A stretch of DNA of 64,000 nt from Candidatus Poribacteria bacterium (lineage in GTDB: Bacteria; Poribacteria; WGA-4E; PCPOR2b), in assembly GCA_965247655.1 (NCBI GenBank), contig OZ252032.1, forward strand, positions 5,339,843-5,403,842, read 5' to 3'. The notes below the pieces were generated by a model. That model saw only the letters and a program-made list of their open reading frames with translations, had not been told where the DNA came from and ran no database searches. How positions within the stretch are numbered: position 1 is the stretch's first letter; each line of letters begins with the position of its first letter. Position numbers and translations under genes: made by a program. This document shows, one piece after another, positions 15,139-45,375 of this stretch.

Positions 15139-15543
15139 ATGCAAGATTACGACTATAGTCTTACATGGTATCACGGCTCTCAGCAAGAGCTGACCACACT
15201 TGGGGTCGGAAGTTCAATTACACAGAACAGAAATGTAGCAAAAGCGTTCTCTCACAGACCGTCCCTGCTCACCCTGTCTAAGGGCGGTACGGTGAAGCAC
15301 GATGGCGTGACACCCGGTTATCTCTATACCGTTGCCGATGAGATTGGTCCCAATGATGTGTATCCACATCCCCATCCGGCGAATGTCACTCGCTGGGAGT
15401 GGCTGACCAACCGAGAATTGAAACTGGAATTAATCGAACAGACTATCGTGACGGACAAGGAACGTCTGACAGACCAAGAAATTGCAGAGATAAAGCGGAA
15501 ACAGGAGGAAAGGGGCGAGCAGACTTTCACGGAGTGTGTTTGA
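15139..15543 (+). CDS. Hypothetical protein
   Basis: ORF with TGAGGT RBS; no family recognised. Confidence 0.45.
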   Translation: MQDYDYSLTWYHGSQQELTTLGVGSSITQNRNVAKAFSHRPSLLTLSKGGTVKHDGVTPGYLYTVADEIGPNDVYPHPHPANVTRWEWLTNRELKLELIEQTIVTDKERLTDQEIAEIKRKQEERGEQTFTECV

Positions 15544-15657
15544 TCTGAGTTGCTACCTATTCCAGAGAAACCAATTTTTGCAGATATTAAACAAGTCGGG
15601 TGTGTTTGCGCTCAAGCATAAATGCTTGGGATTCCATACCTAAAGGTTAATCATTGA

Positions 15658-16563
15658 ATGACTAACGCCGAAAACCACCCTATTATTGTGCTTGGTGTAG
15701 AGCGCAGTGGAACCTCTGTCGTTGCTGAGATGGTGCACAGATGGGGTGCGTATGCCGGAGTGCCTGAAATGTTGCATGAAGCGGATGCACATGCGCCCAG
15801 AGGGTATTGGGAATTTCTACCGTTATGGGATTTGTTGGCAGAGTTAGGCGATTTCGCTTCCGGGGCAACTTGGTGGGATCATGACTTCCAACAGCGAATC
15901 GAAGACAAAGCCGCTGACCCCGTGTATAGGACCAAAGCCACCAAATTGATGTCTCAAATGCACAAAGGTGGTCCTTGGTTTTGGAAGGATCCGGCACTCA
16001 GCCATTTTTTGCCGTTTTGGAAACAGATATGGGGCGATGCGATTTATATAATTACAGTTCGCAACCCCCTCGACACCGCAGTGTCGTGGCAGAAGTTCAT
16101 TATGCCATCCAATGTGAAAGTCTGTATTTCGTTTGTCGCAATGAATTTGCTGCGTTGGCAGCACATGATGACGCTGATACTACAGCACACGGAAGATGCA
16201 CAGCACCGACTCTTCCTTGGCTACGAAGATATTATACGTAAACCTCGTGTGCAGGCTGAGAGGCTAGCTGGGTTCCTGAATTTGAAGTTTGAGAACCGAA
16301 TCCCACCGATTCAGGCGATGGTTGAGGCGGTTGATCCCCAGCTATGGCGAAACGATTGCCGGATGCCGTTTGACCAAGTGCCGGAGGCAACAGAGAGCCA
16401 GAAGGCACTCTATTCCTTTGCAAGACAGAAGATCAAAAATCCATTGGAACCGTTCGACATTACAAAGTATCCACTGCCACCCGGATACCTTGAGTTCCTA
16501 AACATTCAAGAGGCTTTACTGAAAGCCTGTCGAGAACTTGAAACACCTCTGATAGAAAGTTGA
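15658..16563 (+). CDS. Sulfotransferase-family protein
   Basis: 5'-PSB-like IIVLGVERSGTS and 3'-PB-like RNPLDTAVS motifs. Confidence 0.55.
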   Translation: MTNAENHPIIVLGVERSGTSVVAEMVHRWGAYAGVPEMLHEADAHAPRGYWEFLPLWDLLAELGDFASGATWWDHDFQQRIEDKAADPVYRTKATKLMSQMHKGGPWFWKDPALSHFLPFWKQIWGDAIYIITVRNPLDTAVSWQKFIMPSNVKVCISFVAMNLLRWQHMMTLILQHTEDAQHRLFLGYEDIIRKPRVQAERLAGFLNLKFENRIPPIQAMVEAVDPQLWRNDCRMPFDQVPEATESQKALYSFARQKIKNPLEPFDITKYPLPPGYLEFLNIQEALLKACRELETPLIES

Positions 16564-17534
16564 TGAAAACACCGGTTGAGGTGCTATTCACGAGCAATAG
16601 CCCTCTATGGGATCGGATAGATAAAAATCTAACAGGAGTAGAGATGGAAATTGTCCAGTATACACCCAAGCTGCAAAGCGTTTTGACGGCATTCTATAAC
16701 CGTCAGACCGTCAATGTTCCACATTGCTACCCGGTCACGGAAGAGGAGTTCGCCCTTGCGATGTGCGGAGTTAATGGTAAACCGGATATACAGGAGACTG
16801 GACTCGATTTTGAGACAGCCTTCGTTGGGATAGAGAACCGTGCTGTACAGGCGTTTATTCACATAGGTATCGGTCAGGTTGGAGATAACAGGGGCGTTAT
16901 TCGGTTTTTGGGGTACGAGCGCGGTGCCCGGCGTGCCGGGCAAGCCGTGCTTGAAAAAGCGGAAGCCTATCTGGAAGCGTGTAACGTCGCCCACATTGAT
17001 GCCTTTTCACAAGACTCTCGATATCGTTTCTATCATTTTGAAAACGCTGGCTTATCGGACGGATTTGACCATGTTCAAGCACTCCTTGGATTCAACGGCT
17101 ATCAATGCTGTTCAGGGGAGGTTTTTTTAGATTGGGAGAACTATTCTGTCACACCAATACCTTCAAGTGCGCCGGTAACGTTTTCTATCGACTGGGAACA
17201 GGGGAGGGGGCAACGTCCCAATTGTACTGTACGTGCCTACCTAGATGGTGAAGAAGTTGGAGAATGTGAGTCTGTCTCCGGCGGCGAGTTTTCAAGCCAC
17301 CCCGATGCACAAGACTGGCTTCATACTATTGGGCTCGATATCGAAGACCCGTATCAAGGGCAAGGTATTGGGCGTTACCTGCTCCAACGCTCGCTTCAAG
17401 AGATGCGTAAAGTCGGGTATCGCCACGCAACGATTAGCACTGACTGGGAGAACTACCGTGCATTTCTGTTTTACAGCAACTGTGGCTATCGCGTCGTGGA
17501 TTGGACTTACGAATTAGAGAAACATTTCGATTAG
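16560..17534 (+). CDS. GNAT-family N-acetyltransferase (C-terminal GNAT, N-terminal uncharacterised domain)
   Basis: C-terminal QGQGIGRYLLQRSLQEMRKVGYRHATIST GNAT core. Confidence 0.6.
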   Translation: MMKTPVEVLFTSNSPLWDRIDKNLTGVEMEIVQYTPKLQSVLTAFYNRQTVNVPHCYPVTEEEFALAMCGVNGKPDIQETGLDFETAFVGIENRAVQAFIHIGIGQVGDNRGVIRFLGYERGARRAGQAVLEKAEAYLEACNVAHIDAFSQDSRYRFYHFENAGLSDGFDHVQALLGFNGYQCCSGEVFLDWENYSVTPIPSSAPVTFSIDWEQGRGQRPNCTVRAYLDGEEVGECESVSGGEFSSHPDAQDWLHTIGLDIEDPYQGQGIGRYLLQRSLQEMRKVGYRHATISTDWENYRAFLFYSNCGYRVVDWTYELEKHFD

Positions 17535-17648
17535 ACAGTCAGAGTAGAAACGCTAGTTGTAACAGGGATGTCCTCGCAAAGCCTGAAGTAATGTTCTTGA
17601 ACAAACTACTATAAGCAAGGCGGAATCCTAAAGGTGAAAGGTATTACC

Positions 17649-18533
17649 ATGGATGAAACAACTGAGATTGGAGCAGAGAACGTATACGATTTTCTTAAAC
17701 AGTTCGCTACAGATATCTCCCTAGCAGATCTGAAACCTGTATCCCATCGTCACCGGGGCGGTGATAGCCTGACCTTCTACTACCGTGACGACAGTATCCT
17801 CAAGGTTCCCCGCCTTAATGATTACCGCCCAGGACTCCTCAAAGAAATTAAACTCACAGAATACCTGCACACACAGTCACTACCCTTCGTTGTGGCAAAA
17901 CCGATCCTAGCGCATGAAGAGGGATTCTATGCGATGTTTTCAAGGATTGATGGTGCTTCGCTTCCGATAGAAGCACTTGAAGAACTTACCCCCGAAGAGT
18001 TGGAATCCTTTGGCAGATCTATCGGCACTTCCCTCTCTTTCTTGCACAATCACAAATTTCCGATCGAGGTCTTGGACTACATCCCACGCGCGGATGATCC
18101 CTTTGAAGTGGCACTTCGTGAGGCAAGGGGGCAGCTCGCTTTTATTGAGAAACACACTGTAGAAGTAGATACAACTCAATGGACTGAAAAGCTAGAAAGC
18201 CTGCGGGAATCCTTAAATCAGCGGTGGGCTGTGGTTCACTGCGATCTCCAAATAAACCACCTACTTTTTGTCCAAGGAAATCTGGAACAACTCGCCGTTA
18301 TCGATTTCGCGGATACGCTGATGCACGATCCCGCCGTAGATCTATCCGAGTTTGCCATAGAAATGTATTCAGATTTATCCCCTGACGGTATTGCAGCCAA
18401 AAAGATTATCAATGCGGTTCTAAAGCATTATCAAACAGACGATTCTGAGATTGAAGCGAAAATCGAGTTTGGACTTCTCCTTTTTGCAATTAGGTGCGCC
18501 TACCAAGAGGCAGTGAAACTTATCCGCTCATGA
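17649..18533 (+). CDS. Aminoglycoside/choline-kinase-type phosphotransferase (APH family)
   Basis: Catalytic loop VVHCDLQINHLLF and IDFADT motif; start at ATG 17649 behind AAAGGTGAAAGG (track start 17634 is GTG). Confidence 0.75.
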   Translation: MDETTEIGAENVYDFLKQFATDISLADLKPVSHRHRGGDSLTFYYRDDSILKVPRLNDYRPGLLKEIKLTEYLHTQSLPFVVAKPILAHEEGFYAMFSRIDGASLPIEALEELTPEELESFGRSIGTSLSFLHNHKFPIEVLDYIPRADDPFEVALREARGQLAFIEKHTVEVDTTQWTEKLESLRESLNQRWAVVHCDLQINHLLFVQGNLEQLAVIDFADTLMHDPAVDLSEFAIEMYSDLSPDGIAAKKIINAVLKHYQTDDSEIEAKIEFGLLLFAIRCAYQEAVKLIRS

Positions 18534-18675
18534 ACTTTCCCGTTGCCATTTCTCCGAAGATGGTATAATTAGACTTGGATGTTTTCAGGGTTATGGTCCT
18601 TTTGAGGTTGTCAAGTCACCATAGTCAATGAAGCTGCTATATTTATACTTTTCTCTGATACAGAAAGGAAATTCT

Positions 18676-19839
18676 ATGAAGATTAAAGAAATTCGCGTTG
18701 TAGAAATTGAGTTAAATCCGAAACCGACAACACCCCCACGGACACCGAGTCGGTCCGGAACGTATCAAATGAATCGACCCATTTCCCGTTACCCAACGTT
18801 CGACAAAAAAGAGGGAGATGTCTCCTTAGAATGGAAAAGGCCCGCATGTATTGTGACAGCGGAAGATGGCACTTGGGGATTTGGTATATCGCTTCATGGC
18901 GGTCCTGTGACCCGAATCATCACAGATTACTTTGCCCCGCGTCTCGTTGGCGAAAATTGCATGGCGACTGAGAAATTGTGGGACATGATGGTACGGTCAT
19001 CAGCCGCCTTTGGTACGACAGGTTTGACCAGTTACGCGATCAGCGCGATCGACTGTGCCCTGTGGGATCTCAAAGGCAAAATTCTGAAGAGACCTGTTTA
19101 TGAATTGCTGGGTGGACCACAGAAGGAGAAAATCTTCTGCTACGCTTCTGGCTTTGATCAGGAATGGTATATGGAGCTTGGATTCAAAGCGACAAAATTA
19201 TTCACACCTTACGGTCCGGAGCAGGGGAAAGAGGGCTTAATCAAGCTCGAAGAATTGGTGGCGAGCACGCGAGAAGTGATCGGCGATAAAGTTGAATTGA
19301 TGTTGGATGCTTGGACCGGTTTTGACGTTGAACATACCGTGCGCGTCTGCGAGATCATGAAACCTTACGGCTTGAAGTGGATGGAAGATTATATTCCCCC
19401 TGATGATTTTGTGGGGTACGAAACAGTCCGTCAACGCATTCCTTGGCAAACGCTCGCTACGGGAGAACACTGGTATCTACCAACTGTCTTTGCTGCTGCC
19501 GCGGGTCGGCGGTTAGTCGACATCTTCCAGCCAGACGTTTTGTGGTGTGGCGGTATCACTGCCGCAGCCAAAATCTGTCACATTGCTGAAGCGAACGGTA
19601 TCTCTGTGATTACGCACGGCGGAATGAATTATCCCTACGGTCAACATCTGTCATTTGCCATGCCTGCCATCACGTGGGGCGAGCGGTCCGAAGGTATTTC
19701 TCCTCCCGGTGTGCCGCTTGAAGAGATGGCCAAGTTGCCCGGTACTTCAGTCATCAAAGATGGTTACCTCGTACCATCGGAGGCCCCCGGTTTCGGTCTT
19801 GAAATTGATGAAGCTTGGATAGAGAGTGTCAGTAAATAG
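18676..19839 (+). CDS. Enolase-superfamily enzyme (mandelate racemase / sugar-acid dehydratase-like)
   Basis: AISAIDCALWDLKGK, LMLDAWTGFD, ATGEH motifs; start at ATG 18676 behind AAAGGAA. Confidence 0.8.
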   Translation: MKIKEIRVVEIELNPKPTTPPRTPSRSGTYQMNRPISRYPTFDKKEGDVSLEWKRPACIVTAEDGTWGFGISLHGGPVTRIITDYFAPRLVGENCMATEKLWDMMVRSSAAFGTTGLTSYAISAIDCALWDLKGKILKRPVYELLGGPQKEKIFCYASGFDQEWYMELGFKATKLFTPYGPEQGKEGLIKLEELVASTREVIGDKVELMLDAWTGFDVEHTVRVCEIMKPYGLKWMEDYIPPDDFVGYETVRQRIPWQTLATGEHWYLPTVFAAAAGRRLVDIFQPDVLWCGGITAAAKICHIAEANGISVITHGGMNYPYGQHLSFAMPAITWGERSEGISPPGVPLEEMAKLPGTSVIKDGYLVPSEAPGFGLEIDEAWIESVSK

Positions 19840-20080: not shown

Positions 20081-21031
20081 ATGATGTATATTGATTTTGT
20101 CGAAGCCCTATCCGCGGACGATCTGGCGGCTATAAGGAAAGCCGCCAAAACTGACGTTCACTGTCATGCGTACTTTGGCACACGATTAGAGAATGTGGAA
20201 CACTGGTTGGGGCACTCACTGATGAAGGCACCTTCCAAAATGAGTGGACTCGATGCGATGATGGAGTACGCAGATGCGGTCCTAACCCCTCACATAAAAC
20301 ATCGCGAAGGTTTTGAGTTCGTCGCAGCGTCAGCGGTAAGCGATGCAATACAGGATGGCGTGGTTGTGTTTGAGATGAGCTTTGACATTCGGATGGCTGC
20401 CTACTATCCAGATGGCTTAGCTGGGGTTCGGACGTTTATTGAGGCGTTAGTTGACCGGTATCGGACGCAGATTAATCTACGGCCAGAACTTGGCTTTCCC
20501 CGGACGAGTGCCGACAATCCAAGCCTGATGAAGTTAGTGCACCAAGCGATAGAATTCGGTCTGTTTCAGTCAATTGATCTGTATGACCGTCAAGAGGCGT
20601 GCGCTCCTGAGGCTGTGAAGCCCTTGTATGCAAAGGCACAAGCTGCGGGAATGAAACTGAAAGCACATGTTGGAGAGTTTAGGGGTGCGGCGGAGATAAA
20701 GCGGACTGTCGAAGTCCTCGAATTGGACGAAGTCCAACACGGCATTGGCGCATCGGAATCGATTGAAGCCATGCGCTGGCTCTCCGAGAATCAGATTCAG
20801 TTGAATGTGTGCCCAACGAGCAACGTGATGTTGGATGCCGTGTCGGATCTCGCGTCTCATCCCATCCGCGTTTTGTTTGACAACGGTGTGCCGGTGACTA
20901 TTAATACAGATGATCCGATGATATTCGGTCAAAGCGTCTCAGACGAGTATCGAAATCTCTACCAAGCGGGTATCTTCACCGCTCAAGAGTTGGACGATAT
21001 TCGGTGTGCGTCACTTGAAGTGCTTGTTTGA
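20081..21031 (+). CDS. Adenosine/AMP deaminase-family metal-dependent hydrolase
   Basis: TDVHCHAY metal-binding start, HVGEF, and ADA signature-like TINTDDPMIFG. Confidence 0.7.
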   Translation: MMYIDFVEALSADDLAAIRKAAKTDVHCHAYFGTRLENVEHWLGHSLMKAPSKMSGLDAMMEYADAVLTPHIKHREGFEFVAASAVSDAIQDGVVVFEMSFDIRMAAYYPDGLAGVRTFIEALVDRYRTQINLRPELGFPRTSADNPSLMKLVHQAIEFGLFQSIDLYDRQEACAPEAVKPLYAKAQAAGMKLKAHVGEFRGAAEIKRTVEVLELDEVQHGIGASESIEAMRWLSENQIQLNVCPTSNVMLDAVSDLASHPIRVLFDNGVPVTINTDDPMIFGQSVSDEYRNLYQAGIFTAQELDDIRCASLEVLV

Positions 21032-21227
21032 TTTACTGTGACTTTTGATAGAAACCGAGACAACGTGTTTACGTTGTGGGCGACGAGGCACTTGGCTCCT
21101 TGGGCAACTTGAACTGGAATCTATATGGCGTTTTGTCCTGCTTGAAGAACAGGCAAAATTAGGATCACGGCAGTTGACACATAGTTGTCGCTGCGGCAGC
21201 TCTATTCTCATGACGTGGAGGAACACG

Positions 21228-22097
21228 GTGATTAATACCAAGTTAAAAGGCAAAGTCGCCCTGATCACAGGCACCAATCATGGCATTGGTGCTGCAACTG
21301 CTCTGGCTCTGGGCACCCAAGGCGTAAAGGTGTTTGCATCATTCTTTCGCCCACCGTGTCAATACAGCGAAACAGAATTGAAGAAAGCCGAGAAGACCGG
21401 ATTAGGTGGTGATGTTTTCTACCGAGCAATGCAACAAAAGTCTATTGAGCACCTCGTAAATCAGTTTGAAGAAAGGGGCATGAAGATATCTGTCTTAGAA
21501 GCCGACCTTGCTGATGCAACAAACATCTCGAAACTTTTCGATGCTTGTGAGAAGGAGCTAGGACCCGTTGATATCTTGATTAACAATCACACCTATTGCG
21601 TTCTGGAAACATTTGATCCTGAGCAAAGTTCAAAAGACGGGAGAGGCATTTTTCTACCCACCGCTTCAAGCATCGACGCACACTTTGTTATTAATTCCCG
21701 ATCGTATATATTGATGATGCAAGCGTATTTGAAGCGATACCTTAAAAACGGACTGAACTGGGGACGCATTGTAAACACCAGTACAGATGCCGCACATTGC
21801 CACCCGCTGAACATCAGCTATGCCGCAAGCAAACACGCAATCGAATCTTATAGCCGCTCTGCTGCATGTGAGATGGGAAAATACGGGATAACTGTCAACG
21901 TAATCGCTCCCGGACCGATTCAGACGGGCTACATCACACCTGAAGCTGAAAAAGGAATTGCAGAATCTACACCGTTAGGTAGGATTGGCAAACCTGAAGA
22001 TGTGGCGGAGGTTACTGTTTTCCTCTGTTCTGAGCAAGCCCGTTGGCTCACAGGGCAACTACTCTATGTTGGAGGCGGCTATCGAATGCCTCAATAG
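21228..22097 (+). CDS. SDR-family short-chain dehydrogenase/reductase
   Basis: TGTNHGIG cofactor motif, YAASK catalytic YxxxK; GTG start 6 nt after GGAGG (ATG 21210 is an alternative). Confidence 0.8.
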   Translation: MINTKLKGKVALITGTNHGIGAATALALGTQGVKVFASFFRPPCQYSETELKKAEKTGLGGDVFYRAMQQKSIEHLVNQFEERGMKISVLEADLADATNISKLFDACEKELGPVDILINNHTYCVLETFDPEQSSKDGRGIFLPTASSIDAHFVINSRSYILMMQAYLKRYLKNGLNWGRIVNTSTDAAHCHPLNISYAASKHAIESYSRSAACEMGKYGITVNVIAPGPIQTGYITPEAEKGIAESTPLGRIGKPEDVAEVTVFLCSEQARWLTGQLLYVGGGYRMPQ

Positions 22098-27126: not shown

Positions 27127-27923
27127 TGATTAAAATTCATGAAGCCAATCGTCGGCATTGGAATAGTCAAGCACCAACATGGGAGGAACGCTTGAACCGT
27201 GATGGTCGTTGGCGCAGATGTCATAAAGAGCCTGAATTGGCATTTGAGGGCGAAACACTTGCCACAATCCGAGAGATGGTAGGCGATCTTCGCAACAAAC
27301 AGGTGTGTGTAATTGGTAGTGGAGATAACATGGCAGCCTATGCACTTTCAGGATTAGGGGCAGTCGTGACTTCCACAGATATTTCGGAGGAACGATTGAA
27401 ATTGGCAGCAGATCGTGCAGAAATCCTCGGTGTGTCAATCGATTTTGTTCGTTCCGATGCCGCAGATCTCGGATTCGCAGACGATTCGACCTTTGATCTT
27501 GTCTGCTCCACAAATGGCTTTTTCGTGTGGATTGCCGATCCCGGTGCGGTATTTCGTGAGGTTTCAAGAATCCTGAAACCAGGAGGCGCATACGTTTTCT
27601 ACGACATCCATCCATTCATGCGCCCATGGAAAGAGCAGGTGACGCCCATTGAAATGGCGAAGCCTTATTGGGACACTGGACCGTTTCGAGAGTCAGCGGA
27701 CGGATCGTACGAGTTTAACTGGACCTTGGCCGATTTGCTTAATCCGCTGGCACAAACTGGATTGACATTGAAAAAAGTTGTCGAAAGTCCAGCGCAAGAT
27801 CCCGGATTTTGGCAGGGAAGCAGTGATATGTCTAGCACCGATGAATCTTTACTTGATTGGAAAAGGAATCCCCGCGCTGGATTGCCTGTTTGGCTAACAG
27901 TCGCTGCCTCCAGAATTGATTGA
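27127..27923 (+). CDS. Class I SAM-dependent methyltransferase (second copy, about 93 percent identical to 22161..22955)
   Basis: Same motifs as 22161; conserved 50-nt upstream leader. Confidence 0.8.
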
Positions 27924-27982
27924 GGTACGGTCAGAACACAGTGGCAAGTTACCCGGGTTACTTTGCGAAAGGAATCCACACA

Positions 27983-28504
27983 ATGATAGAGATACGGGAA
28001 GAACAGCAAGAGGAGTGTCAGGAAATCCATCAGGTTATCGTCGCTGCATTCGGTGGTGACCCCGAAGAACCCGTAGCCGACGTCGTTGAATTGCTTCGAG
28101 ATAGAAACAAGGCACCGGTTGCGCTTGTGGCAGTCAGGGACAACAAGATTGTCGGTCATATCATGTTTTCACCGGTTACGATAACACTCGCGCCCAAAGC
28201 GTTCCGTGCTGTTGGACTGGCACCCCTATCCGTCCTGCCAGAGTTCCAAAGGCAGGGCATTGGCTCTATGTTGGCACGCGAAGGGTTAAAAAAATGTGCG
28301 GCGGCAGGATTTGAGATAGCAGTCGTGTTGGGAAGTCGCTACTACTACCCACGATTCGGTTTCTCTCGTGCCAGTTTTTACGGCTTGGGCAATGAATATG
28401 ACACTGACGAGCATTTCATGGCAATAGAACTGAAGAATGGCGTTCTTGATAAAGTCAGCGGCACCGTGCAGTATTCGCCAGAATTCAAGGAGTGTGGTTG
28501 CTGA
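27983..28504 (+). CDS. GNAT-family acetyltransferase (second copy, about 93 percent identical to 23019..23540)
   Basis: Near-identical protein sequence to 23019 copy. Confidence 0.8.
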   Translation: MIEIREEQQEECQEIHQVIVAAFGGDPEEPVADVVELLRDRNKAPVALVAVRDNKIVGHIMFSPVTITLAPKAFRAVGLAPLSVLPEFQRQGIGSMLAREGLKKCAAAGFEIAVVLGSRYYYPRFGFSRASFYGLGNEYDTDEHFMAIELKNGVLDKVSGTVQYSPEFKECGC

Positions 28505-28559: not shown

Positions 28560-29627
28560 ATGACCTCGAGCACTAAAACCAACAATACACCCAACGATGG
28601 AACCGATTTCGTAAGTGGCATTGATTTAGCCCGGATGTTCTATGTTGAAATCGTTCGCCCACTCATAGAAGGGCGAGCCCACAGTGCAGCGAGGCTAGGG
28701 TCAGGGTCGGATGTTCTCGGTTTCGATACCCCTCGATCAACAGACCACGGCTGGGGACCACAATTACACCTTTTTGTGGCAGCCTCTGAGGTAGATGCCA
28801 TCCGCACGATTATCGATTCAAACCTACCGGAGGAGTTTCACGGGTGGCCCGTGCGCTTCGGCTGGGATGAGGTCGCCATTCAGCACCATGTGAGCGTTGT
28901 ATCTCTTGGGGAGTGGCTTGAATTGCATCTGGGATTCGATCCGCAAGTGGATATTACCGTCCAAAACTGGCTTACGACGCCACAACAACTACTGCTAGAA
29001 GTAACAGCAGGTGCGGTCTTTCATGATCCGGATGGAGATTTGAAACGGGTTCGCAGTAAACTGGAGTGGTTTCCAAACGATATTTGGCTATGGCTCTTGG
29101 CTTGTCAGTGGCGTCGAATTGCTCAAGAAGAGGCGTTCGTTGGTCGCACGGCTGAAATCGGCGATGAACTCGGTTCACGAATCCTGACAGCCCGAATTGT
29201 ACGCGATCTCATGAGGCTTTGCTTCCTTATAGAGCGGCAATATGCTCCATATAGCAAGTGGCTGGGCAGCGCATTCCGAAATCTCCGCATTGCCTTCAAA
29301 CTCACCCCGTATCTGGATGCAGCACTCAAGGCTACGGACTACCTTGCTAGAGAAACGGGGCTCTGTTCTGCCTACGAATATGTCGCACGTTGCTACAATC
29401 AACTGAACCTCACCCCTCCCGTTGATCCTGAAACCCGCTTGTTTTATAAACGTCCTTTTCGGGTGCTTGGAGGAGATCGATTTGCAGAGGCGTGCTTGGC
29501 AGCCATTCAAGATGAGTGGCTGAAAGGACAACCGCTTGTAGGGAGTGTCGATCAGTTTGTGGACAGTACGGATGTCTTGAGCAGCGCACACCGATCTCGG
29601 TGTCTTACCAATATCTATGACGACTGA
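28560..29627 (+). CDS. Nucleotidyltransferase-like / DUF4037-like protein (paralog 1 of 3)
   Basis: Degenerate pol-beta NTase motif LGSGSDVLGFDTPRSTDHGWGP; shared C-terminal region with 29727 and 32047 proteins (W..L..W... APY.KWL). Confidence 0.5.
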   Translation: MTSSTKTNNTPNDGTDFVSGIDLARMFYVEIVRPLIEGRAHSAARLGSGSDVLGFDTPRSTDHGWGPQLHLFVAASEVDAIRTIIDSNLPEEFHGWPVRFGWDEVAIQHHVSVVSLGEWLELHLGFDPQVDITVQNWLTTPQQLLLEVTAGAVFHDPDGDLKRVRSKLEWFPNDIWLWLLACQWRRIAQEEAFVGRTAEIGDELGSRILTARIVRDLMRLCFLIERQYAPYSKWLGSAFRNLRIAFKLTPYLDAALKATDYLARETGLCSAYEYVARCYNQLNLTPPVDPETRLFYKRPFRVLGGDRFAEACLAAIQDEWLKGQPLVGSVDQFVDSTDVLSSAHRSRCLTNIYDD

Positions 29628-29726
29628 ATTCTATTTGTCTAACAAGCTCGTCGCCCAATCGCTTCGTGGTTCGGGTACATTGGAAGTGTGGATTCAGGGT
29701 GTACAAACGGGCAAGCTAAGGAGACC

Positions 29727-30710
29727 GTGAAATTGACAACACCTATTAAGGCCCTTGAACTTTCACGCCGGTTGTTTGAGCAACGCGGACACCCCTTACT
29801 CCAGCAACTTGATCTGCTCGATGTATGTGCGGTGGGTTGTTTTGGAGGCACTTCACAGAACGCCAATCTTGATGACGATTGGTCTCGCGATCACATGTGG
29901 GGTCCGTACCTCACCTTCGTCTTGAAGGGCGAAGCCTACAATGAACATGAGTCCGCACTAGAAAAAGCTATCGCAAAGATGCCTGATGAAATTGATGGTG
30001 TGCACTGGATTGGCTACGATGGGCCCGAGCCACGCAGAACCGGTGTCCAAGAAGCGCATTCACTTCTGCGTTTGATAACAGGTCTTGAGGGTCCCGTAGA
30101 TAGCGAAGAGGATTGGATTTCGCTCATCGAGCGTAACGGTTTTCTGGGGTGTCGCTGGACCGAACAGCTTTTTGACGCAGGTCAAGGAGCAGTTTTTCAT
30201 GGGGCATGGTTTGAGGGGATGTGGCGGGACTGGACAAAATTCGTTCCGATAAACGTCAAGTTGGCGTTAATCAGTCGCTCCGTATTTCGAATCTGGAATG
30301 CGGGTCCGACCTATAATCTCAAGCGATTAATCGCTCGCAAGGATGCGATAGGAACGCTCCTCTGTACGAGTCGGTTCGTCGATGAGGTAATGGAGTTGGG
30401 GTTCACTCTGAGTGACCAGTTCACACCTTCCTTCAAGTGGCGATCTGCCCATTTCCAACGCCTCTCGGTCTTCTCAAAAGAAACCCAGACTGCGATTGCG
30501 AGATTAGTTGAAGTAAAAGACGTGGAAGAGATTCTATCCATTGCAAAATCTATCGAGTCTGAAATTAAAAGTGTATTGCGGTCTATGTTCTCTGTCAGAT
30601 GCGGACAGAGAACCGACTTGTCCATGTATGCACACGCAATCAAAAGAAAGATACGTCACAAGCGAGTGAAAGATATGACGAATCTAGATTGGTGGGTTCA
30701 TCTCGGATGA
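29727..30710 (+). CDS. Nucleotidyltransferase-like / DUF4037-like protein (paralog 2 of 3)
   Basis: GCFGGTSQNANLDDDWSRDHMWGP motif; start uncertain (GTG 29688, GTG 29727 or TTG 29733). Confidence 0.5.
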   Translation: MKLTTPIKALELSRRLFEQRGHPLLQQLDLLDVCAVGCFGGTSQNANLDDDWSRDHMWGPYLTFVLKGEAYNEHESALEKAIAKMPDEIDGVHWIGYDGPEPRRTGVQEAHSLLRLITGLEGPVDSEEDWISLIERNGFLGCRWTEQLFDAGQGAVFHGAWFEGMWRDWTKFVPINVKLALISRSVFRIWNAGPTYNLKRLIARKDAIGTLLCTSRFVDEVMELGFTLSDQFTPSFKWRSAHFQRLSVFSKETQTAIARLVEVKDVEEILSIAKSIESEIKSVLRSMFSVRCGQRTDLSMYAHAIKRKIRHKRVKDMTNLDWWVHLG

Positions 30711-30919
30711 ACAATAGGAGAATCTGAGAGGGTATAGGAGCAAGATAGAAGAAATAACCCGCGTCACTTAACAACACGGTTTGCGCTGCGGTGCTTAGCA
30801 CCTTGGCCTTCGGCAACCTAGTTGCACAGGTTTGCAAACCGGCAAACGTTAGCGGCCATGCATCCACACTTGAGCAATAGCCTTTGTTCAACAACCATTA
30901 CCAACATGAGATTCCCGCC

Positions 30920-31918
30920 ATGATGAATGTTGAAAACATGCGACTAGTAGTCGACGTTCTGGAGTCAACGAAAGCGTGTCCGGCTTTGACGGAGATCGCT
31001 GCTCGAAGGTGGTCTCCTGAACCTCATCTCTTTTCCTATGTGAGGAGCAGTGCCACTTTCATCTTCACGTTCTATCAGGGCGAGCAAAAGAGGATTCTCA
31101 GACTTCAACACTCGGCGGACACCACTCTCGAACGAATCACCTCTGAACTTGAATTTATCCATCACGTTTTCGAGACTGGAGTCCAAGCTGCCAAAGCGAT
31201 CCCGTCACGAAATGACCAAATCGTGGAGGTGGTGGACTGGGAGGGGCACACCTTCTACGCAACCGCGTTTGAGTACATGGTCGGGAGACACTGCGAGACT
31301 CAAGATCTCACATCTGAAATGTTGTTTCAGTGGGGCAAGACACTTGCGCTCATTCATCTGGCCTCACGCAGTTTTGTGGAACCGGAGGGTTTTGCCATCC
31401 CATCTTGGGAAAACGAACTGAATCAATTGGTTAAATACATTCCAGAAGATGAAAGCCGGACGCAAGACGAGCTAAAATGCGTTCGGGAGTGGCTCGGACA
31501 GCGGGAGAAGACCTCAAAAAATTATGGCTTGATCCATCGTGACTTGGAATTGGACAACATGAAATGGGATGGTGAGCACTTCCTGGTGTTTGATTTCAAC
31601 GACCTGATGTACCATTACTTCGCAGCAGATGTCGCATCCTCTCTTGAGGAAATTCTTGGGACCGAAGATGCTGAGAAGAACTCGACGCGGTTCCTTGAGG
31701 GATATGAGCGGTCCCTAGACGACCTCGAAATCAACGTAGACGAATTCCCAATGTTCTCCCGAGCCGCCAGACTTCGCAAGTACCTCAAGCTCCTTGCATC
31801 GTACTCGGGAACGCGTCCGGAATCTGATTCGGAATGGCTGTCGGGGATGCGCAAGCGACACGAAAGCGTAATGGATTATCTCCGTGAGTCGGTCGCGACT
31901 CCATTTAGCTGGCAATGA
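30920..31918 (+). CDS. APH-family phosphotransferase (aminoglycoside/choline kinase-like)
   Basis: Catalytic loop LIHRDLELDNMKW and FDFNDL motif; ATG 30920 preferred over TTG 30884. Confidence 0.7.
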   Translation: MMNVENMRLVVDVLESTKACPALTEIAARRWSPEPHLFSYVRSSATFIFTFYQGEQKRILRLQHSADTTLERITSELEFIHHVFETGVQAAKAIPSRNDQIVEVVDWEGHTFYATAFEYMVGRHCETQDLTSEMLFQWGKTLALIHLASRSFVEPEGFAIPSWENELNQLVKYIPEDESRTQDELKCVREWLGQREKTSKNYGLIHRDLELDNMKWDGEHFLVFDFNDLMYHYFAADVASSLEEILGTEDAEKNSTRFLEGYERSLDDLEINVDEFPMFSRAARLRKYLKLLASYSGTRPESDSEWLSGMRKRHESVMDYLRESVATPFSWQ

Positions 31919-32046
31919 GCCGCTGTGCACACCTGCTAATCTGTGCATCCACGGCTTCGCCAAGTTAGTTTTCAAAAAGGTTAGTCGTCTTTAGATCTGG
32001 AACTGGTATTAGGTGCCATCTAAGAAATGTCATCGTGGAGGACTCT

Positions 32047-33030
32047 ATGAAAGGATTTGAACTATCAGAGCGATTCTTCCGAGAGATTGGGCTTCCTACC
32101 ATTGAGCAGCAATTGCCTAGGTGTATCCCGAGACTGGCAGTAGGAGTTAGTGAAGGCTCGCAAGCGCACAAGAACGACGACGAGGTGTCTCGTGATCATG
32201 GTTGGGGACCGGGATTCACGGTGTGGTTTGCCAAAAACGATTTCGATGATTACGGCGAGCATCTACGGGAAGTACTCGATACGCTGCCCAATGCGTATAA
32301 CGGATTTCGATGGAAGAATCCACCGGCTAGGACCTGTGGTGTAATCGAAATCGGTAGCTATATAGAATCTGTAGTCGGATTTCCAGAGCCCCCCGAGTCA
32401 TCTATGGACTGGTTGCGAATACCAGAGTCGTATCTGTTTGAACTAACCCCGAGCAGGCTTTATCACGATGGGCCTGGCATTGTCAGTGCGCACTTCAGAG
32501 CGTTCTCCAAATACCCCGATGATGTATGGAAGCAGCGAATGGGGGCTTGTCTTTCCTGGCTCTGGGAGTGGGGACGAAAGCATCTCTTCAGGGCAGAAAC
32601 TCGAGAAGACTACGTGAGTGCGTCTTGCTATTGGGCGCGATTCGCTGAATACGCAATGAAGGTTGGTTTTCTGATGAGTCAGCGTCATGCACCCTACCAC
32701 AAATGGTTGTGGACAGAATTTAGAAAGTTGGGTGCTATTGCCGACGAAGTTTCTCCTTTGCTCGAGGAGGGGTTCGAGAAGGTAAATAGTAGACGAGAAC
32801 TGGTTGACCGCATAGAGATGCTCTATATGGAGAGGCTTCAGAAGTTGGGCTTTTCATTAGAACTCACGGTCCAAGTAGCCGCTAGAAGATTGGCCTATCC
32901 GGACAACGAACTACTTCAATATGCTCAGGGTATTCGGGGCACAATTGAAGATCCAGAAATCAAGAAACTACACTTGAGAGAAGAACTTGTCTATCCAGCA
33001 ACTAAGGCCGCGTGGACGTGGCTACGATAG
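32047..33030 (+). CDS. Nucleotidyltransferase-like / DUF4037-like protein (paralog 3 of 3)
   Basis: GVSEGSQAHKNDDEVSRDHGWGP motif; ATG 32047 behind GGAGG. Confidence 0.5.
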   Translation: MKGFELSERFFREIGLPTIEQQLPRCIPRLAVGVSEGSQAHKNDDEVSRDHGWGPGFTVWFAKNDFDDYGEHLREVLDTLPNAYNGFRWKNPPARTCGVIEIGSYIESVVGFPEPPESSMDWLRIPESYLFELTPSRLYHDGPGIVSAHFRAFSKYPDDVWKQRMGACLSWLWEWGRKHLFRAETREDYVSASCYWARFAEYAMKVGFLMSQRHAPYHKWLWTEFRKLGAIADEVSPLLEEGFEKVNSRRELVDRIEMLYMERLQKLGFSLELTVQVAARRLAYPDNELLQYAQGIRGTIEDPEIKKLHLREELVYPATKAAWTWLR

Positions 33031-33451
33031 GGACCCCCTAGTAGTCGGCACCTAAAATCATGCCCCCGGTCCTGGGCCCCTTCGCCCAACCGCTTCGCAG
33101 GTTCGGCAATTGGGACAACGCTATGGGAACAGCAAATCAGATTACTAACACCGTAGTTATGGTCGCATTACACAGAGACAGATGAACCCTATATGACACA
33201 ACTAACCCATGGTCTGAGTCTGCCAAGAAGCTTCTTCGGACAGGCTAGGGCTTCACCCAACCTGTACTTTGGATATGCTATCTGAAAGGTGTCTTTCGAT
33301 ATCAAGTAATAGTTCCATATCCTTGTGTTGCTACCGCTCCTTGGTTTGTAGGGCAACAGTTAATCACTATTTGTGTACGGATAAAACGTTACAAGAAAAT
33401 GCGACCTACAAAAGTGGTCACCTCTGGCCACTGTCTAAGACGAGGGTAAAA

Positions 33452-34366
33452 ATGAAAAAACTCACACACGCTGCATCTCAGAGCGCGAAGAACTTCATAA
33501 TGGATCAGGGGAGGGCGTTGGACCAAAAGCGTTTTAAATTTCACTTTGAAGCCGGATCTGCTAATGCCGTCCTTACCGAGCTGGCATCTTATCAAAACGA
33601 CGATGGGGGTTTTGGCAACAGTCTGGAACCTGACATCAGGACATCGGCTTCATCTGCGATTGCGACCACGGTAGGTTTTCAGGTTCTCAGGGAAATTCGG
33701 GCACCTGTGGGGCACGCGCTGGTACGGAAAGGAATCGAGTATTTTGTCGCTACCTACGATGAGTCCCGGCAGGTATGGCCAATCATTCCACCTGAAGTGG
33801 CTGAGGCACCTCACGCCCCCTGGTGGAATTACGAGAACAGTGCCGAAAGTTTCGGTCAGTTTCTGGTCAACCCACGTGCTGAGATTGTCGGATATTTGCA
33901 CGAATTTAGCGATGAAGTGCCGACGAAATTGCTGAAGCCATTAGCCGCGGCCGTTCTGGAGCATCTGGATTCCCTGACCGACGAAATGGAGATGCACAAC
34001 ATCCTCTGTTTCGCAAGGCTCGCGGAAACGGAGGCTCTACCGAATAGGGACAAGGTTTGGGAAAAACTGGCCCAGGCGGCGGCACTTCGTGTCGCCCGGA
34101 ATGCAGAGCAGCTGACTGGCTATGTTCTCAAGCCCCTGTGGTTGGTTTCCTCTCCGGAATCACCTCTCGCCGCTGGGCTTAAGGACGAAGTGGCGATGAA
34201 CTTGGACTTTGAGATCGAACAGCAGGGTGAGGACGGCTCTTGGTCTCCGAATTTCTCTTGGGGAGATCAATATCCAGAAACGTGGCGAACAGCCAAGAAA
34301 GAATGGCAATCTAGATTCACAGTTGATACCTTGAAAACGTTGAGAGATTTCGGGCGCATCGAATAA
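33452..34366 (+). CDS. Alpha/alpha-toroid repeat protein (prenyltransferase / terpene-cyclase-like QxxDGG(F/W) repeats)
   Basis: QNDDGGFGNS and QQGEDGSWSP motifs; GAGGG RBS before ATG 33452. Confidence 0.35.
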   Translation: MKKLTHAASQSAKNFIMDQGRALDQKRFKFHFEAGSANAVLTELASYQNDDGGFGNSLEPDIRTSASSAIATTVGFQVLREIRAPVGHALVRKGIEYFVATYDESRQVWPIIPPEVAEAPHAPWWNYENSAESFGQFLVNPRAEIVGYLHEFSDEVPTKLLKPLAAAVLEHLDSLTDEMEMHNILCFARLAETEALPNRDKVWEKLAQAAALRVARNAEQLTGYVLKPLWLVSSPESPLAAGLKDEVAMNLDFEIEQQGEDGSWSPNFSWGDQYPETWRTAKKEWQSRFTVDTLKTLRDFGRIE

Positions 34367-45363: not shown

Positions 45364-45375
45364 ACCGAATCAGGA

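What the first reader, a model, noticed from the sequence alone, without database searches (positions are those of the whole stretch)
15139..34366. IS-bounded accessory island dense in small-molecule-modifying enzyme families
The island lies between the IS5 insertion at 13.7 kb and the IS982 at 34.4 kb. It is made almost entirely of transferases and tailoring-type enzymes: a sulfotransferase, three GNATs, four SAM methyltransferases, two APH-type kinases, a P-loop kinase, an SDR, an adenosine-deaminase-like hydrolase, an enolase-superfamily enzyme, an alpha-toroid (terpene-cyclase-like) protein, and three nucleotidyltransferase-like paralogs. The mix of kinase, nucleotidyltransferase, acetyltransferase and methyltransferase families matches antibiotic-modifying, self-resistance or natural-product tailoring loci. 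Internal duplications and repeat elements indicate recent flux. No core biosynthetic enzyme (PKS, NRPS, terpene synthase) is evident, so the substrate is unknown.
Basis: inference. Interest (0 to 1): 0.7.

Follow-up and report, generated by a model that had tools for sequence, protein, structure and literature searches.

The report
Variable enzyme-gene array in Poribacteria
The 19-kb run of same-strand genes for small "tagging" enzymes (acetyl-, methyl-, phospho-, nucleotidyl- and sulfo-transferases) is real, but it is an old, vertically inherited locus of sponge-symbiont Poribacteria whose genes are swapped in and out between fixed backbone genes, not an island brought in or bounded by the two insertion sequences.

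Summary
Of 20 genes, 14 are group-transferases: 1 sulfotransferase, 3 GNAT, 4 SAM-methyltransferases, 2 APH-type kinases, 1 P-loop kinase and 3 DUF4037 proteins with an ANT(4')/LinB-like fold. None of 26 annotated flank genes is of these families (one is a MobA-like NTP-transferase; Fisher p 2e-7, or 2e-6 if it is counted).

The "IS-bounded accessory island" reading fails. The two IS belong to different families. Each is a single insertion with its own target duplication: IS5 lies inside an alpha/beta-hydrolase gene, and IS982 lies just after a stop codon, with the empty site seen in a relative.

About 14 other Poribacteria genomes carry the same backbone in the same order between the same flanks, without these IS. 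Composition is native. dN/dS (0.04-0.28) and dS match the flanks. Between backbone genes lie slots where single genes or pairs differ among genomes, always drawn from the same enzyme families.

Around the anchor acid-sugar dehydratase, a similar neighbourhood is seen in 63 species.

No core biosynthetic gene, no attC sites and no defence system were found. No protein reaches a curated resistance or function cut-off.

The best reading is a conserved flexible locus of stand-alone small-molecule-modifying enzymes. Their substrates are unknown.

The parts
10450..10524 (-). tRNA-Ala(GGC), outside the locus, next to the conserved left flank
   Evidence: Found by ARAGORN and Rfam. The block 8752-13357 is collinear with OZ242315.1 at 87-88% nt.
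10595..13274 (-). Conserved left flank: ABC-2 exporter operon (two ABC2_membrane_6 permeases and an ATPase)
   Evidence: Pfam. Orthologs at 86-96% lie in the same position in L006-L018. dN/dS is 0.04-0.05.
13401..15040 (+). Alpha/beta-hydrolase gene (proline-iminopeptidase-like) split by the IS5 element; a window-specific slot occupant
   Evidence: Removing the IS and one TSD copy restores a 249-aa ORF with a GHSFG nucleophile elbow. The PDB alignment runs across the junction at residues 10-127. Relatives carry a different a/b hydrolase here, at 21-22% identity.
13719..14605 (-). IS5-family insertion sequence (887 bp, terminal IR GAACCTGTTTTAAAA, 3-bp TSD TTA)
   Evidence: Sequence reading. 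Pfam hits are DUF4096 and DDE_Tnp_1.
15139..15543 (+). Backbone gene hyp134 (no family)
   Evidence: No Pfam or NCBIfam hit. Orthologs at 83-88% occur in 10 of 63 loci. dN/dS is 0.16-0.18.
15658..16563 (+). Sulfotransferase. It fills a slot that is absent from the closest clade but occupied upstream of MR/MLE in 22 of 63 species.
   Evidence: Pfam Sulfotransfer_3, E 2.7e-17. Window-specific segment 15535-16625. Counts.
16560..17534 (+). Backbone GNAT with an N-terminal extension (about 300 aa; probable start 16632)
   Evidence: Pfam Acetyltransf_1. Orthologs at 82-88% lie directly upstream of APH/MR_MLE.
17634..18533 (+). Backbone APH-type kinase (APH299)
   Evidence: Pfam APH, E 3.9e-18. PDB APH(2'') hits 3uzr and 3ham, E 1.5e-8. 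NCBIfam APH(2'')-IIa scores 29.9 bits against a cut-off of 625. It lies directly upstream of MR_MLE in 25 of 63 species.
18628..19839 (+). Anchor gene: enolase-superfamily acid-sugar dehydratase (L-rhamnonate-dehydratase-like)
   Evidence: Pfam MR_MLE_N and MR_MLE_C. NCBIfam L-rhamnonate dehydratase scores 222 bits, below the cut-off of 393. PDB 2oz3, E 4.5e-57. Orthologs at 80-95% occur in 80 Poribacteria loci. dN/dS is 0.04-0.06.
20081..21031 (+). Adenosine-deaminase-like amidohydrolase. In the closest clade this slot holds GFO_IDH_MocA(-) +/- HAD, but the deaminase lies downstream of MR/MLE in 41 of 63 species.
   Evidence: Pfam A_deaminase, E 6e-34. NCBIfam 260 bits against a cut-off of 510. 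Context. L017 carries a copy at 97%.
21045..22097 (+). Backbone SDR oxidoreductase (probable start about 21228, 289 aa)
   Evidence: Pfam adh_short_C2, E 6e-44. Orthologs at 84-92%.
22161..23540 (+). Backbone pair: methyltransferase MT_A1 and GNAT_A1 (copy 1 of the duplicated unit)
   Evidence: Pfam. 22104-23568 matches 27069-28532 at 91.5%. For the paralogs, dS is 0.22-0.31 and dN/dS 0.15-0.16.
23845..25338 (+). Window-specific slot: P-loop (uridine-kinase-like) kinase and methyltransferase MT298
   Evidence: Pfam and NCBIfam. No ortholog in any of 63 loci. Segment 23550-25488 is absent from OZ242315.1, where DUF2442 and two GNAT genes lie instead.
25533..26339 (+). Backbone methyltransferase MT268
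   Evidence: Pfam. Orthologs at 85-92%.
26379..26992 (+). Pseudogene: frameshifted and truncated transglutaminase-core/NUDIX backbone gene
   Evidence: Two overlapping ORF fragments, with Transglut_core found only in the second. Intact proteins of 340-343 aa with a NUDIX domain occur in L002 and L003. The truncation is shared with L001.
27063..28504 (+). Copy 2 of the MT_A and GNAT_A unit. It replaces the 3' part of the TGase/NUDIX gene and a choline-kinase-like gene.
28560..30710 (+). Backbone DUF4037_a and DUF4037_b (nucleotidyltransferase-like)
   Evidence: Pfam DUF4037. AF2 pLDDT 81.5 with Foldseek hits 3c18, LinB 3jyy and ANT(4') 6nmk/1kan. Orthologs at 80-95%.
30884..33030 (+). Accessory pair in one slot: APH-type kinase APH344 and DUF4037_c
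   Evidence: Pfam. Absent from the 63 species loci. Present in the same slot in L086 at 91% and 97%. dS against L086 is 0.05-0.15, lower than the neighbours.
33452..34366 (+). Backbone gene hyp365 (304 aa; QNDDGGFG and QQGEDGSWSP motifs; fold unresolved)
   Evidence: The start was fixed by alignment. No family or PDB hit. AF2 pLDDT 48.
34370..35417 (+). IS982-like insertion sequence (1048 bp, 17-bp IR GGGCCTTATGCTAGTTA, TSD AAGTA)
   Evidence: Pfam DDE_Tnp_1_3. The empty site is seen in L001.
35736..39747 (-). Conserved right flank: AMP-binding enzyme and S9 prolyl-oligopeptidase with PD40 propeller
   Evidence: Pfam. Orthologs at 85-92% lie in the same position in L001, L002, L003, L018 and L086.

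Best explanation
The region is a chromosomal, vertically inherited flexible locus of Candidatus Poribacteria (sponge symbionts).

**Backbone.** A fixed, co-directional backbone sits between an ABC-2 exporter operon and an AMP-binding/S9-peptidase pair. Its order is: hyp134, GNAT324-APH299-MR/MLE dehydratase, SDR-MT_A-GNAT_A, MT268-TGase/NUDIX, DUF4037_a, DUF4037_b, hyp365.

**Slots.** Between the backbone genes lie slots. In different lineages these slots hold different single genes or gene pairs. The occupants are nearly always drawn from the same small-enzyme families: GNAT, SAM-MT, APH/CPT/P-loop kinases, DUF4037 nucleotidyltransferase-like proteins, NUDIX, HAD, a/b-hydrolase, VOC, PhyH.

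**How it changes (inferred).** Slot contents change through homologous recombination in the conserved backbone genes between lineages. Local duplication and deletion add to this.

**What it does (inferred).** The products act as stand-alone group-transfer or hydrolytic enzymes on small molecules. The likely roles are tolerance or modification of xenobiotics and stray metabolites in the sponge holobiont. They do not look like steps of one pathway.

**The two IS (shown).** IS5 and IS982 are later, unrelated single insertions. One of them inactivated a slot gene.
For: **Organism and spread.**
- DUF4037_a and MR/MLE homologs are all Poribacteria. A 100% match lies on a 6.74-Mb contig.

**Synteny.**
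- Ordered tblastn maps of L001-L003 and L006-L018 show the same backbone order and flanks without these IS.
- blastn against OZ242315.1 gives 16 collinear blocks at 83-91% nt. Replaced segments interrupt them exactly at the intergenic slots.
- L018 is a minimal version of about 9 kb.

**Slot content.**
- 16 loci yield 258 ORFs. 125 have orthologs in the window, and the other 133 fall into 41 clusters.
- The clusters scanned against Pfam are GNAT, MT, a/b-hydrolase, HAD, choline-kinase-like, CPT, PhyH, NUDIX, GFO_IDH_MocA, DUF2442 and occasional transposases.
- The pattern is phylum-wide around MR/MLE in 63 species: A_deaminase 41, MT 37, GNAT 27 and 17, APH 25, sulfotransferase 22, NUDIX 17, DUF218 16, PRK-like 14, VOC 10.

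**Native and selected.**
- GC is flat, and tetranucleotide distance is barely above the flanks.
- dN/dS is 0.04-0.28 and dS 0.17-0.77 for backbone genes, the same as the flank genes.

**Exchange of a slot unit.**
- APH344 and DUF4037_c sit in the same slot in L086. Their dS of 0.05-0.15 is below the 0.17-0.38 of other island genes compared with L086.

**IS independence.**
- Each IS has its own TSD, the hydrolase ORF is restored on excision, and an empty site exists.
Against: - No function was measured, and every assignment is at superfamily level.
- Some features are what an operon or pathway would show: tight spacing, two 4-nt gene overlaps (16560/16563 and 27920/23), and sub-modules that always travel together (SDR-MT-GNAT, GNAT-APH-MR/MLE, APH344-DUF4037_c).
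- The recombination mechanism is inferred from the mosaic pattern and one low-dS segment. It was not shown by breakpoint or phylogenetic incongruence analysis.
- The enrichment test used only this window's flanks as background, not the whole genome.
- The relatives are MAGs, so assembly errors in a variable region are possible. However, many are closed long-read chromosomes.
Confidence: 0.7

Rival explanations
1. An intrinsic resistance array. The kinases, nucleotidyltransferase-like proteins, acetyltransferases and methyltransferases would inactivate antibiotics or other bioactive compounds made in the sponge holobiont. The slots would diversify to track that chemistry. This is a functional sharpening of the best explanation, not a structural alternative.
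For: - The families present mirror the three classic group-transfer classes of drug-modifying enzymes.
- APH299's best PDB hits are APH(2'') enzymes.
- The DUF4037_a model matches LinB, ANT(4') and ANT(6).
- GNAT_A weakly matches Eis.
- Relatives add CPT (chloramphenicol-phosphotransferase-like) and VOC/bleomycin-resistance-like genes.
- L087 has an AadA_C protein in a similar array.
- An ABC-2 exporter with a DrrA-like C-terminal domain lies next door.
Against: - All matches are far below curated cut-offs, for example 29.9 bits against 625 for APH(2'')-IIa.
- Identity to the ANT/LinB structures is 12-13%, with TM 0.3-0.5.
- These superfamilies are mostly not resistance enzymes.
- The locus also holds an acid-sugar dehydratase, an SDR and an adenosine-deaminase-like hydrolase, which do not fit.
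Confidence: 0.2
2. A single pathway. The co-directional genes would form one or a few operons that tailor or catabolise one class of substrate, such as a sugar acid, a nucleoside or an aminocyclitol-like sponge metabolite. The MR/MLE dehydratase, SDR, deaminase, kinases and transferases would act in sequence.
For: - All 21 ORFs are on one strand with short gaps and two 4-nt overlaps.
- Adjacencies are conserved: APH299-MR/MLE in 25 of 63 species, A_deaminase in 41 of 63, and SDR-MT-GNAT always together.
- The flanks encode sugar and sulfated-glycan catabolism.
Against: - Slot-by-slot replacement and a 9-kb minimal version (L018) show that most members are dispensable and interchangeable.
- There is no core biosynthetic enzyme, no regulator and no dedicated transporter inside the locus.
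- Several redundant paralogs of the same families are present.
- A backbone gene is a pseudogene here.
Confidence: 0.1
3. One reading: a horizontally acquired, strain-specific accessory island delimited and mobilised by IS5 and IS982.
For: - The two IS do lie near the ends.
- Gene content differs from relatives in about seven segments.
- Other genomes also have transposases inside this locus.
Against: - The two IS belong to different families, and each has its own TSD.
- IS5 sits inside a gene that is itself a slot occupant. IS982 has an empty site in L001.
- The backbone and both flanks are conserved in about 14 genomes that lack these IS.
- Composition is native.
- dS equals that of the flanks.
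Confidence: 0.03
4. A degenerate integron-like cassette array (CALIN), or an anti-phage defence island.
For: - It is a co-directional array of small genes whose families (GNAT, MT, NUDIX, VOC, DUF4160/DUF2442) are typical of chromosomal integron cassettes.
- PADLOC gives mad2 hits to the 4 MTs and a CARF_ADA hit to the deaminase.
Against: - R''/R' core-site pairs number 4 against 3.4 expected, and none is intergenic.
- Several gaps are -4 to 70 nt, too short for attC.
- No integrase was found among the annotated genes.
- The PADLOC hits are generic domain matches with no system partners.
Confidence: 0.03

Closest known systems
Regions of genomic plasticity, or integration 'hotspots', at conserved chromosomal positions (flexible genomic islands between core genes)
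   Same: The flanks are conserved and the position is fixed. Content varies among related genomes, and IS hits occur now and then.
   Different: The variable genes are interleaved with a conserved backbone as many small slots, rather than forming one block. Composition is native. There is no integrase, phage or tRNA-attachment signature. Occupants come from a narrow set of enzyme families, and the locus type persists across a phylum.
Antibiotic group-transfer enzymes: APH(2'') kinases, ANT(4')/LinB/ANT(6) nucleotidyltransferases, AAC/Eis GNATs, CPT
   Same: The superfamilies and folds are the same.
   Different: Sequence identity is very low (12-13% to the ANT/LinB structures) and scores are far below curated cut-offs. 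No substrate is known. The genes are chromosomal and ancient in the lineage rather than mobile.
Sedentary chromosomal integron cassette arrays
   Same: Both are co-directional arrays of small, mostly promoter-less-looking genes. The mix of GNAT, MT, NUDIX, VOC and small TA-like proteins is similar, and content varies between relatives.
   Different: There are no attC sites and no intI. Many gaps are too short, and a conserved backbone is interleaved.
Composite transposon or IS-bounded island
   Same: IS elements lie near both ends.
   Different: The IS belong to different families and have separate TSDs. One is inside a gene. The locus is present without them in relatives.

Membership tests
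Composite transposon / IS-bounded island | Two copies of the same IS, or IS of one family, at the two ends | tested here: not met
   The left element has DUF4096 and DDE_Tnp_1 (IS5-type, 887 bp). The right element has DDE_Tnp_1_3 (IS982-type, 1048 bp). Their IRs are unrelated.
Composite transposon / IS-bounded island | One target-site duplication flanking the whole unit, not each IS | tested here: not met
   Each IS has its own TSD, TTA and AAGTA. Excising IS5 restores an a/b-hydrolase ORF. The empty site for IS982 is seen in L001.
Composite transposon / IS-bounded island | The unit is absent from the same site in relatives | tested here: not met
   The backbone is present in the same order between the same flanks in about 14 genomes.
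Horizontally acquired genomic island | Deviant composition, an integrase, and tRNA-adjacent direct repeats | tested here: not met
   GC is 0.45-0.51 against 0.45-0.56 for the whole window. Tetranucleotide distance is 0.0148 inside and 0.0140 outside. No integrase domain occurs in the region. The tRNA-Ala is separated from the region by a conserved ABC operon.
Conserved-position flexible locus (region of genomic plasticity) | Conserved flanking genes with variable gene content between related genomes | tested here: met
   In 16 loci, 133 of 258 ORFs have no ortholog in the window and fall into 41 clusters.
Biosynthetic gene cluster (natural-product tailoring locus) | A core scaffold-forming enzyme (PKS, NRPS, terpene synthase/cyclase, RiPP precursor and maturase) | tested here: not met
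   There is no such Pfam or NCBIfam hit in any of the 21 ORFs. hyp365 has no prenyltransferase or cyclase hit even at E<=10. Its fold could not be modelled, so a cryptic cyclase is not formally excluded.
Clinically defined aminoglycoside/lincosamide-modifying enzymes (APH, ANT, AAC) | A score at or above the curated NCBIfam/AMRFinder model cut-off | tested here: not met
   The best is APH(2'')-IIa at 29.9 bits against 625. No ANT or AAC model is hit.
Clinically defined aminoglycoside/lincosamide-modifying enzymes (APH, ANT, AAC) | Shared fold with ANT(4')/LinB (Pol-beta NTase domain plus helical domain) | tested here: met
   The DUF4037_a model (pLDDT 81.5) gives Foldseek hits to 3c18, 3jyy, 6nmk and 1kan. 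E is 6e-4 to 5e-2, probability 1.0 and TMt 0.38-0.52.
Clinically defined aminoglycoside/lincosamide-modifying enzymes (APH, ANT, AAC) | Drug modification or a resistance phenotype | not testable with these tools
   This needs expression and MIC or enzyme assays.
Integron cassette array / CALIN | attC recombination sites after the ORFs; an intI integrase for a full integron | tested here: not met
   RYYYAAC...GTTRRRY pairs number 4 against 3.4 +/- 3.1 in shuffles, and none is intergenic. Gaps of -4 to 70 nt occur at 9 of 19 junctions. No attC covariance model was available.
Anti-phage defence system | A match to a complete known system | tested here: not met
   PADLOC gives only mad2 (a generic MT match, 4 members) and CARF_ADA (the deaminase domain).
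Alpha/alpha-toroid terpene-cyclase/prenyltransferase-like protein (hyp365) | A sequence or fold match to the toroid families | tested here: inconclusive
   QW-like motifs are visible, but there is no Pfam or PDB hit. The AF2 model has pLDDT 48.

The most novel reading that the evidence does not exclude
Poribacteria, and perhaps other sponge symbionts (see the similar array in L087), may maintain a dedicated 'chemical-tolerance array'. It would be chromosomal, independent of integrons and IS, and co-directional. A fixed backbone would provide homology arms for swapping individual small-molecule-modifying genes between lineages. This would give a population-level, cassette-like repertoire tuned to the bioactive chemistry of the host sponge.
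Probability: 0.15. Interest if true: 0.6.

Novelty: new member of a known kind. Interest (0 to 1): 0.3.

Why it matters
- **It corrects a tempting misreading.** Two IS near the ends of a gene run do not make a mobile island.
- **It documents a locus type.** The locus persists across a candidate phylum of uncultivated sponge symbionts. Group-transfer enzymes of drug-modifying superfamilies are concentrated there and exchanged slot by slot.
- **It would matter if substrates are holobiont metabolites.** If the enzymes act on compounds of the sponge holobiont, the locus would be a natural place to look for tolerance or detoxification functions. It could also yield new enzyme specificities, such as the three DUF4037 nucleotidyltransferase-like paralogs.
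- **As it stands, the finding is modest.** It is a well-behaved example of a conserved flexible region with unknown substrates. It is neither a new system nor a biosynthetic cluster.

Tried and rejected
1. **IS-bounded or composite element.** Rejected on separate TSDs, different IS families, an empty site and synteny.
2. **Foreign origin.** GC, tetranucleotide profile and dS give no signal. Only 30-33 kb is mildly odd (z 2.2), like several spots outside the locus.
3. **Integron/CALIN.** There are no attC-like core pairs in the intergenic DNA, and the gaps are too short. The repeat finder and the DNA search could not take the needed settings, and the first script timed out.
4. **The ~60-nt repeat at 24416 and 30755 as a cassette junction or MITE.**
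   - It has only two good copies.
   - It is absent from 85 related loci.
   - Its predicted folding is no better than that of shuffled sequences.
5. **Defence island.** PADLOC gives generic domain hits only.
6. **Promoter and terminator scan.** Counts equal the shuffles, so it is uninformative.
7. **Terpene-cyclase-like hyp365.**
   - Pfam, NCBIfam, and PDB phmmer and profile searches all found nothing.
   - AF2 with a 30-sequence alignment at 75-93% identity gave pLDDT 48.
   - No fold search was run on that model.
8. **Exact-protein look-ups of window proteins.** The MR/MLE ORF and P0001 were not on record.
9. **Literature.** Two searches found no paper describing this locus.
10. **Rfam.** Only the tRNA was found.

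Full report
**1. What is in the sequence.**

Between 15139 and 34366 there are 21 consecutive ORFs, all on the + strand.
- sulfotransferase (15658)
- three GNATs (16560, 23019, 27920)
- four class-I SAM methyltransferases (22161, 24442, 25533, 27063)
- two APH-type kinases (17634, 30884)
- a PRK/uridine-kinase-like P-loop kinase (23845)
- an SDR (21045)
- an adenosine-deaminase-like amidohydrolase (20081)
- an MR/MLE enolase-superfamily enzyme (18628)
- three DUF4037 proteins (28437, 29688, 32035)

Two ORFs (15139 and 33269) have no family. Two short overlapping ORFs (26379 and 26621) are fragments of one transglutaminase-core gene.

NCBIfam adds no specific function, because no protein reaches a curated cut-off. 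The MR/MLE is closest to L-rhamnonate dehydratase (222 bits against 393). APH299 scores 29.9 bits against the 625-bit cut-off of APH(2'')-IIa.

PDB sequence searches agree. The MR/MLE falls in the acid-sugar dehydratase group (2oz3, E 4.5e-57). The deaminase matches adenosine deaminases at E ~5e-21. APH299 matches APH(2'') at 1.5e-8. The sulfotransferase, DUF4037_a and hyp365 find nothing.

An AlphaFold model of DUF4037_a (pLDDT 81.5, pTM 0.80) matches nucleotidyltransferase-like protein 3c18, lincosamide nucleotidyltransferase LinB and kanamycin nucleotidyltransferase ANT(4'). Foldseek probability is 1.0, E is 6e-4 to 5e-2, target-normalised TM is 0.4-0.5 and identity is 12-13%.

The 'alpha-toroid' call for 33269-34366 could not be tested. 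Alignment puts the real start at 33452 and shows QNDDGGFG and QQGEDGSWSP motifs. The model is unusable at pLDDT 48. Sequence and profile searches find nothing.

**2. Is the family density more than chance?**

Only this window is available as background.
- In the island, 14 of 20 genes are group-transferases of the named families.
- Among 26 annotated genes outside it there are none, or one if a MobA-like NTP-transferase is counted.
- Those outside genes are ABC-2 transporter, GFO/IDH/MocA oxidoreductases, a second MR/MLE, aldo-keto reductase, sulfatase, PD40 proteins, melibiase, cupin/KduI and others.
- Fisher p is 1.6e-7 (2e-6 with the one).

The observation of unusual density is therefore real at this scale.

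**3. The two insertion sequences.**

*IS5-family element.* It spans 13719-14605 (887 bp). Its ends are GAACCTGTTTTAAAA in inverted orientation, and it is flanked by TTA on both sides. Removing it and one TTA joins 13401-13718 to 14609-15040. The result is a 249-aa alpha/beta hydrolase with an intact GHSFG nucleophile elbow. The alignment to proline iminopeptidase structures runs straight across the junction, at residues 10-127.

*IS982-like element.* It spans 34370-35417 (1048 bp) with 17-bp inverted repeats and an AAGTA duplication. It sits 3 nt after the stop codon of the last gene. In relative L001 the same site is empty and otherwise collinear.

The two IS are unrelated to each other. Each is a simple, separate insertion, and neither marks the edge of anything.

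**4. Organism and relatives.**

The homologs of DUF4037_a are Candidatus Poribacteria proteins. A 100% identical protein lies on a 6,737,770-bp contig. A scan of one genome per GTDB species with the MR/MLE protein returned 80 loci. All but one are labelled Poribacteria, at 80-95% identity, and many come from closed chromosomes.

Ordered tblastn maps and the gene calls of L001-L003 and L086 show that about 14 genomes of the closest clade share one arrangement:

tRNA-Ala | ABC2-ABC2-ABC ATPase (-) | ... hyp134 ... GNAT324-APH299-MR/MLE ... SDR-MT_A-GNAT_A ... MT268-TGase/NUDIX ... DUF4037_a ... DUF4037_b ... hyp365 ... | AMP-binding (-) - S9 peptidase (-) - SirB1-like

None of them has these two IS at these sites. 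It is therefore met for the backbone.

**5. The mosaic.**

blastn of the window against the merged locus of OZ242315.1 (L011 and L002) gives collinear blocks at 83-91% nt. Segments present in only one of the two interrupt them, always between genes. The window-only segments are:

| Window segment | Content in the window | Content in relatives |
|---|---|---|
| 13358-15128 | a/b hydrolase and IS5 | other genes |
| 15535-16625 | sulfotransferase | other genes |
| 19844-21117 | deaminase | GFO_IDH_MocA on the other strand, plus HAD |
| 23550-25488 | P-loop kinase and MT298 | DUF2442 and two GNATs |
| 27069-28512 | second MT_A and GNAT_A copy | 3' part of TGase/NUDIX and a choline-kinase-like gene |
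| 30718-33358 | APH344 and DUF4037_c | an MT, a sigma-70 factor and two unknowns |
| 34364-35581 | IS982 | a CPT-like kinase |

L018 has a minimal locus of about 9 kb.

In 16 loci of the clade I called 258 ORFs inside the locus. Of these, 125 have an ortholog in the window. The other 133 fall into 41 clusters. The clusters scanned against Pfam are again GNATs, methyltransferases, a/b hydrolase, HAD, choline-kinase-like, CPT, PhyH, NUDIX, GFO_IDH_MocA and DUF2442. L008 and L015 also carry occasional transposases.

**6. Depth in the phylum.**

In the 63 species loci with full flanks, the neighbourhood of MR/MLE has the same character. The counts are:
- deaminase downstream in 41
- a methyltransferase in 37
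- GNATs in 27 and 17
- APH299 directly upstream in 25
- the sulfotransferase in 22
- NUDIX in 17
- a DHDPS-family protein in 17
- DUF218 in 16
- a PRK-like kinase in 14
- a VOC/glyoxalase in 10

The sulfotransferase and deaminase look 'window-specific' against the closest clade. In fact they are widespread alternative occupants.

APH344 is rare: only 6 proteins match at E<=1e-10. Even so, together with DUF4037_c it occupies the same slot in L086 at 91% and 97% identity. A homolog at 82.5% sits in a different array of MT, GNAT, NUDIX, AadA_C and APH genes in a 54%-GC genome, L087.

**7. Native and under selection.**

GC is flat. The tetranucleotide distance to the window mean is 0.0148 inside and 0.0140 outside. 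Only 30-33 kb is mildly high (z 2.2), like several places outside.

dN/dS of island genes against orthologs is 0.04-0.28 and dS is 0.17-0.77. Both match the flank genes.

The two MT_A/GNAT_A copies differ by dS 0.22-0.31 with dN/dS 0.15-0.16. Both are therefore maintained, and the duplication is about as old as the species splits. L001 shares the truncated TGase followed by MT_A-GNAT_A, so that rearrangement predates the window's lineage.

APH344 and DUF4037_c have lower dS against L086 (0.05-0.15) than the other island genes compared with L086 (0.17-0.38). This is what exchange of a slot unit by recombination would give. It is an inference from one comparison.

**8. Alternatives tested.**
- **Integron-like array.** attC-type core pairs number 4 against 3.4 expected, and none is intergenic. 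Nine of 19 gaps are 70 nt or shorter.
- **Defence island.** PADLOC gives only generic MT and deaminase-domain hits.
- **BGC.** There is no core enzyme.
- **Repeat at 24416-24470 and 30755-30817.** It has two good copies, is absent from 85 related loci and has no special fold.
- **Promoter and terminator scans.** They are at chance level.
- **Literature.** Two searches gave nothing on this locus.

**9. Verdict.**

The observation (gene families, IS, duplication) is largely right. The interpretation as an IS-bounded accessory island is not.

What is there is a conserved flexible locus of Poribacteria. A backbone of co-directional genes carries interleaved replacement slots, and the slots are filled from a narrow pool of small-molecule-modifying enzyme families. 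In this genome two unrelated IS have hit the locus.

Shown:
- anatomy
- synteny
- IS independence
- native composition
- purifying selection

Inferred:
- slot exchange by homologous recombination
- stand-alone detoxification or metabolite-modifying roles

Unknown:
- every substrate

The resemblance to antibiotic-modifying enzymes is at superfamily and fold level only.

Noticed in passing
window 54364-55734 (-): A TnpB/IS605-OrfB-like gene (OrfB_IS605, Cas12f1-like TNB and HTH_OrfB_IS605 domains). It is a third mobile-element-type gene in the window.
   Followed up: no
window 26379-26992 (+): The transglutaminase-core/NUDIX backbone gene is frameshifted and truncated here. It is intact (340-343 aa) in L002 and L003. 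L001 shares the truncation.
   Followed up: partly
window 24416-24470 and 30755-30817 (weaker copies at 25416-25437 and 35504-35528): A short interspersed repeat with the core CTTGGCCTTCGGCAAC lies at the left edges of two window-specific slots. Only two copies are good. It is absent from 85 related loci, and its predicted folding is no better than that of shuffles.
   Followed up: yes
L087 1-20999 (4.08-Mb contig, GC 0.544): A different organism carries another co-directional array of MT, GNAT, NUDIX, APH, AadA_C and glyoxalase genes. It includes a homolog of APH344 at 82.5% identity. Such arrays may therefore be a wider feature of sponge-associated genomes.
   Followed up: partly
L008 5759-7440; L015 5749-6537: Other Poribacteria genomes have different transposase genes (DDE_5/DDE_Tnp_1, DDE_3, and an IS5 homolog at 90%) inside the same locus, between hyp134 and GNAT324. 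The locus has been hit by IS repeatedly.
   Followed up: partly
window 1554-3047, 5223-9579, 40952-46350, 50699-54289: The flanks encode a sulfatase, an aldo-keto reductase, a second MR/MLE paralog (6558-7748), three GFO/IDH/MocA oxidoreductases, cupin/KduI and a melibiase-like enzyme. This looks like sugar or sulfated-glycan catabolism and contrasts with the transferase-rich locus.
   Followed up: no
window 10450-10524 (-): tRNA-Ala(GGC) lies next to the ABC-2 operon. It is conserved with that operon in relatives and is not an island attachment site.
   Followed up: yes
L001, L003, L002 and L016 slots (e.g. L003 6809-7392): Small DUF4160/DUF2442 gene pairs, which look like toxin-antitoxin pairs, occupy one slot in several relatives. 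The window has none.
   Followed up: no
window 30884-33030 vs L086 9965-12108: The APH344 and DUF4037_c pair has much lower synonymous divergence to L086 (dS 0.05-0.15) than the other island genes compared with L086 (0.17-0.38). This hints at recent exchange of this slot unit between lineages.
   Followed up: partly
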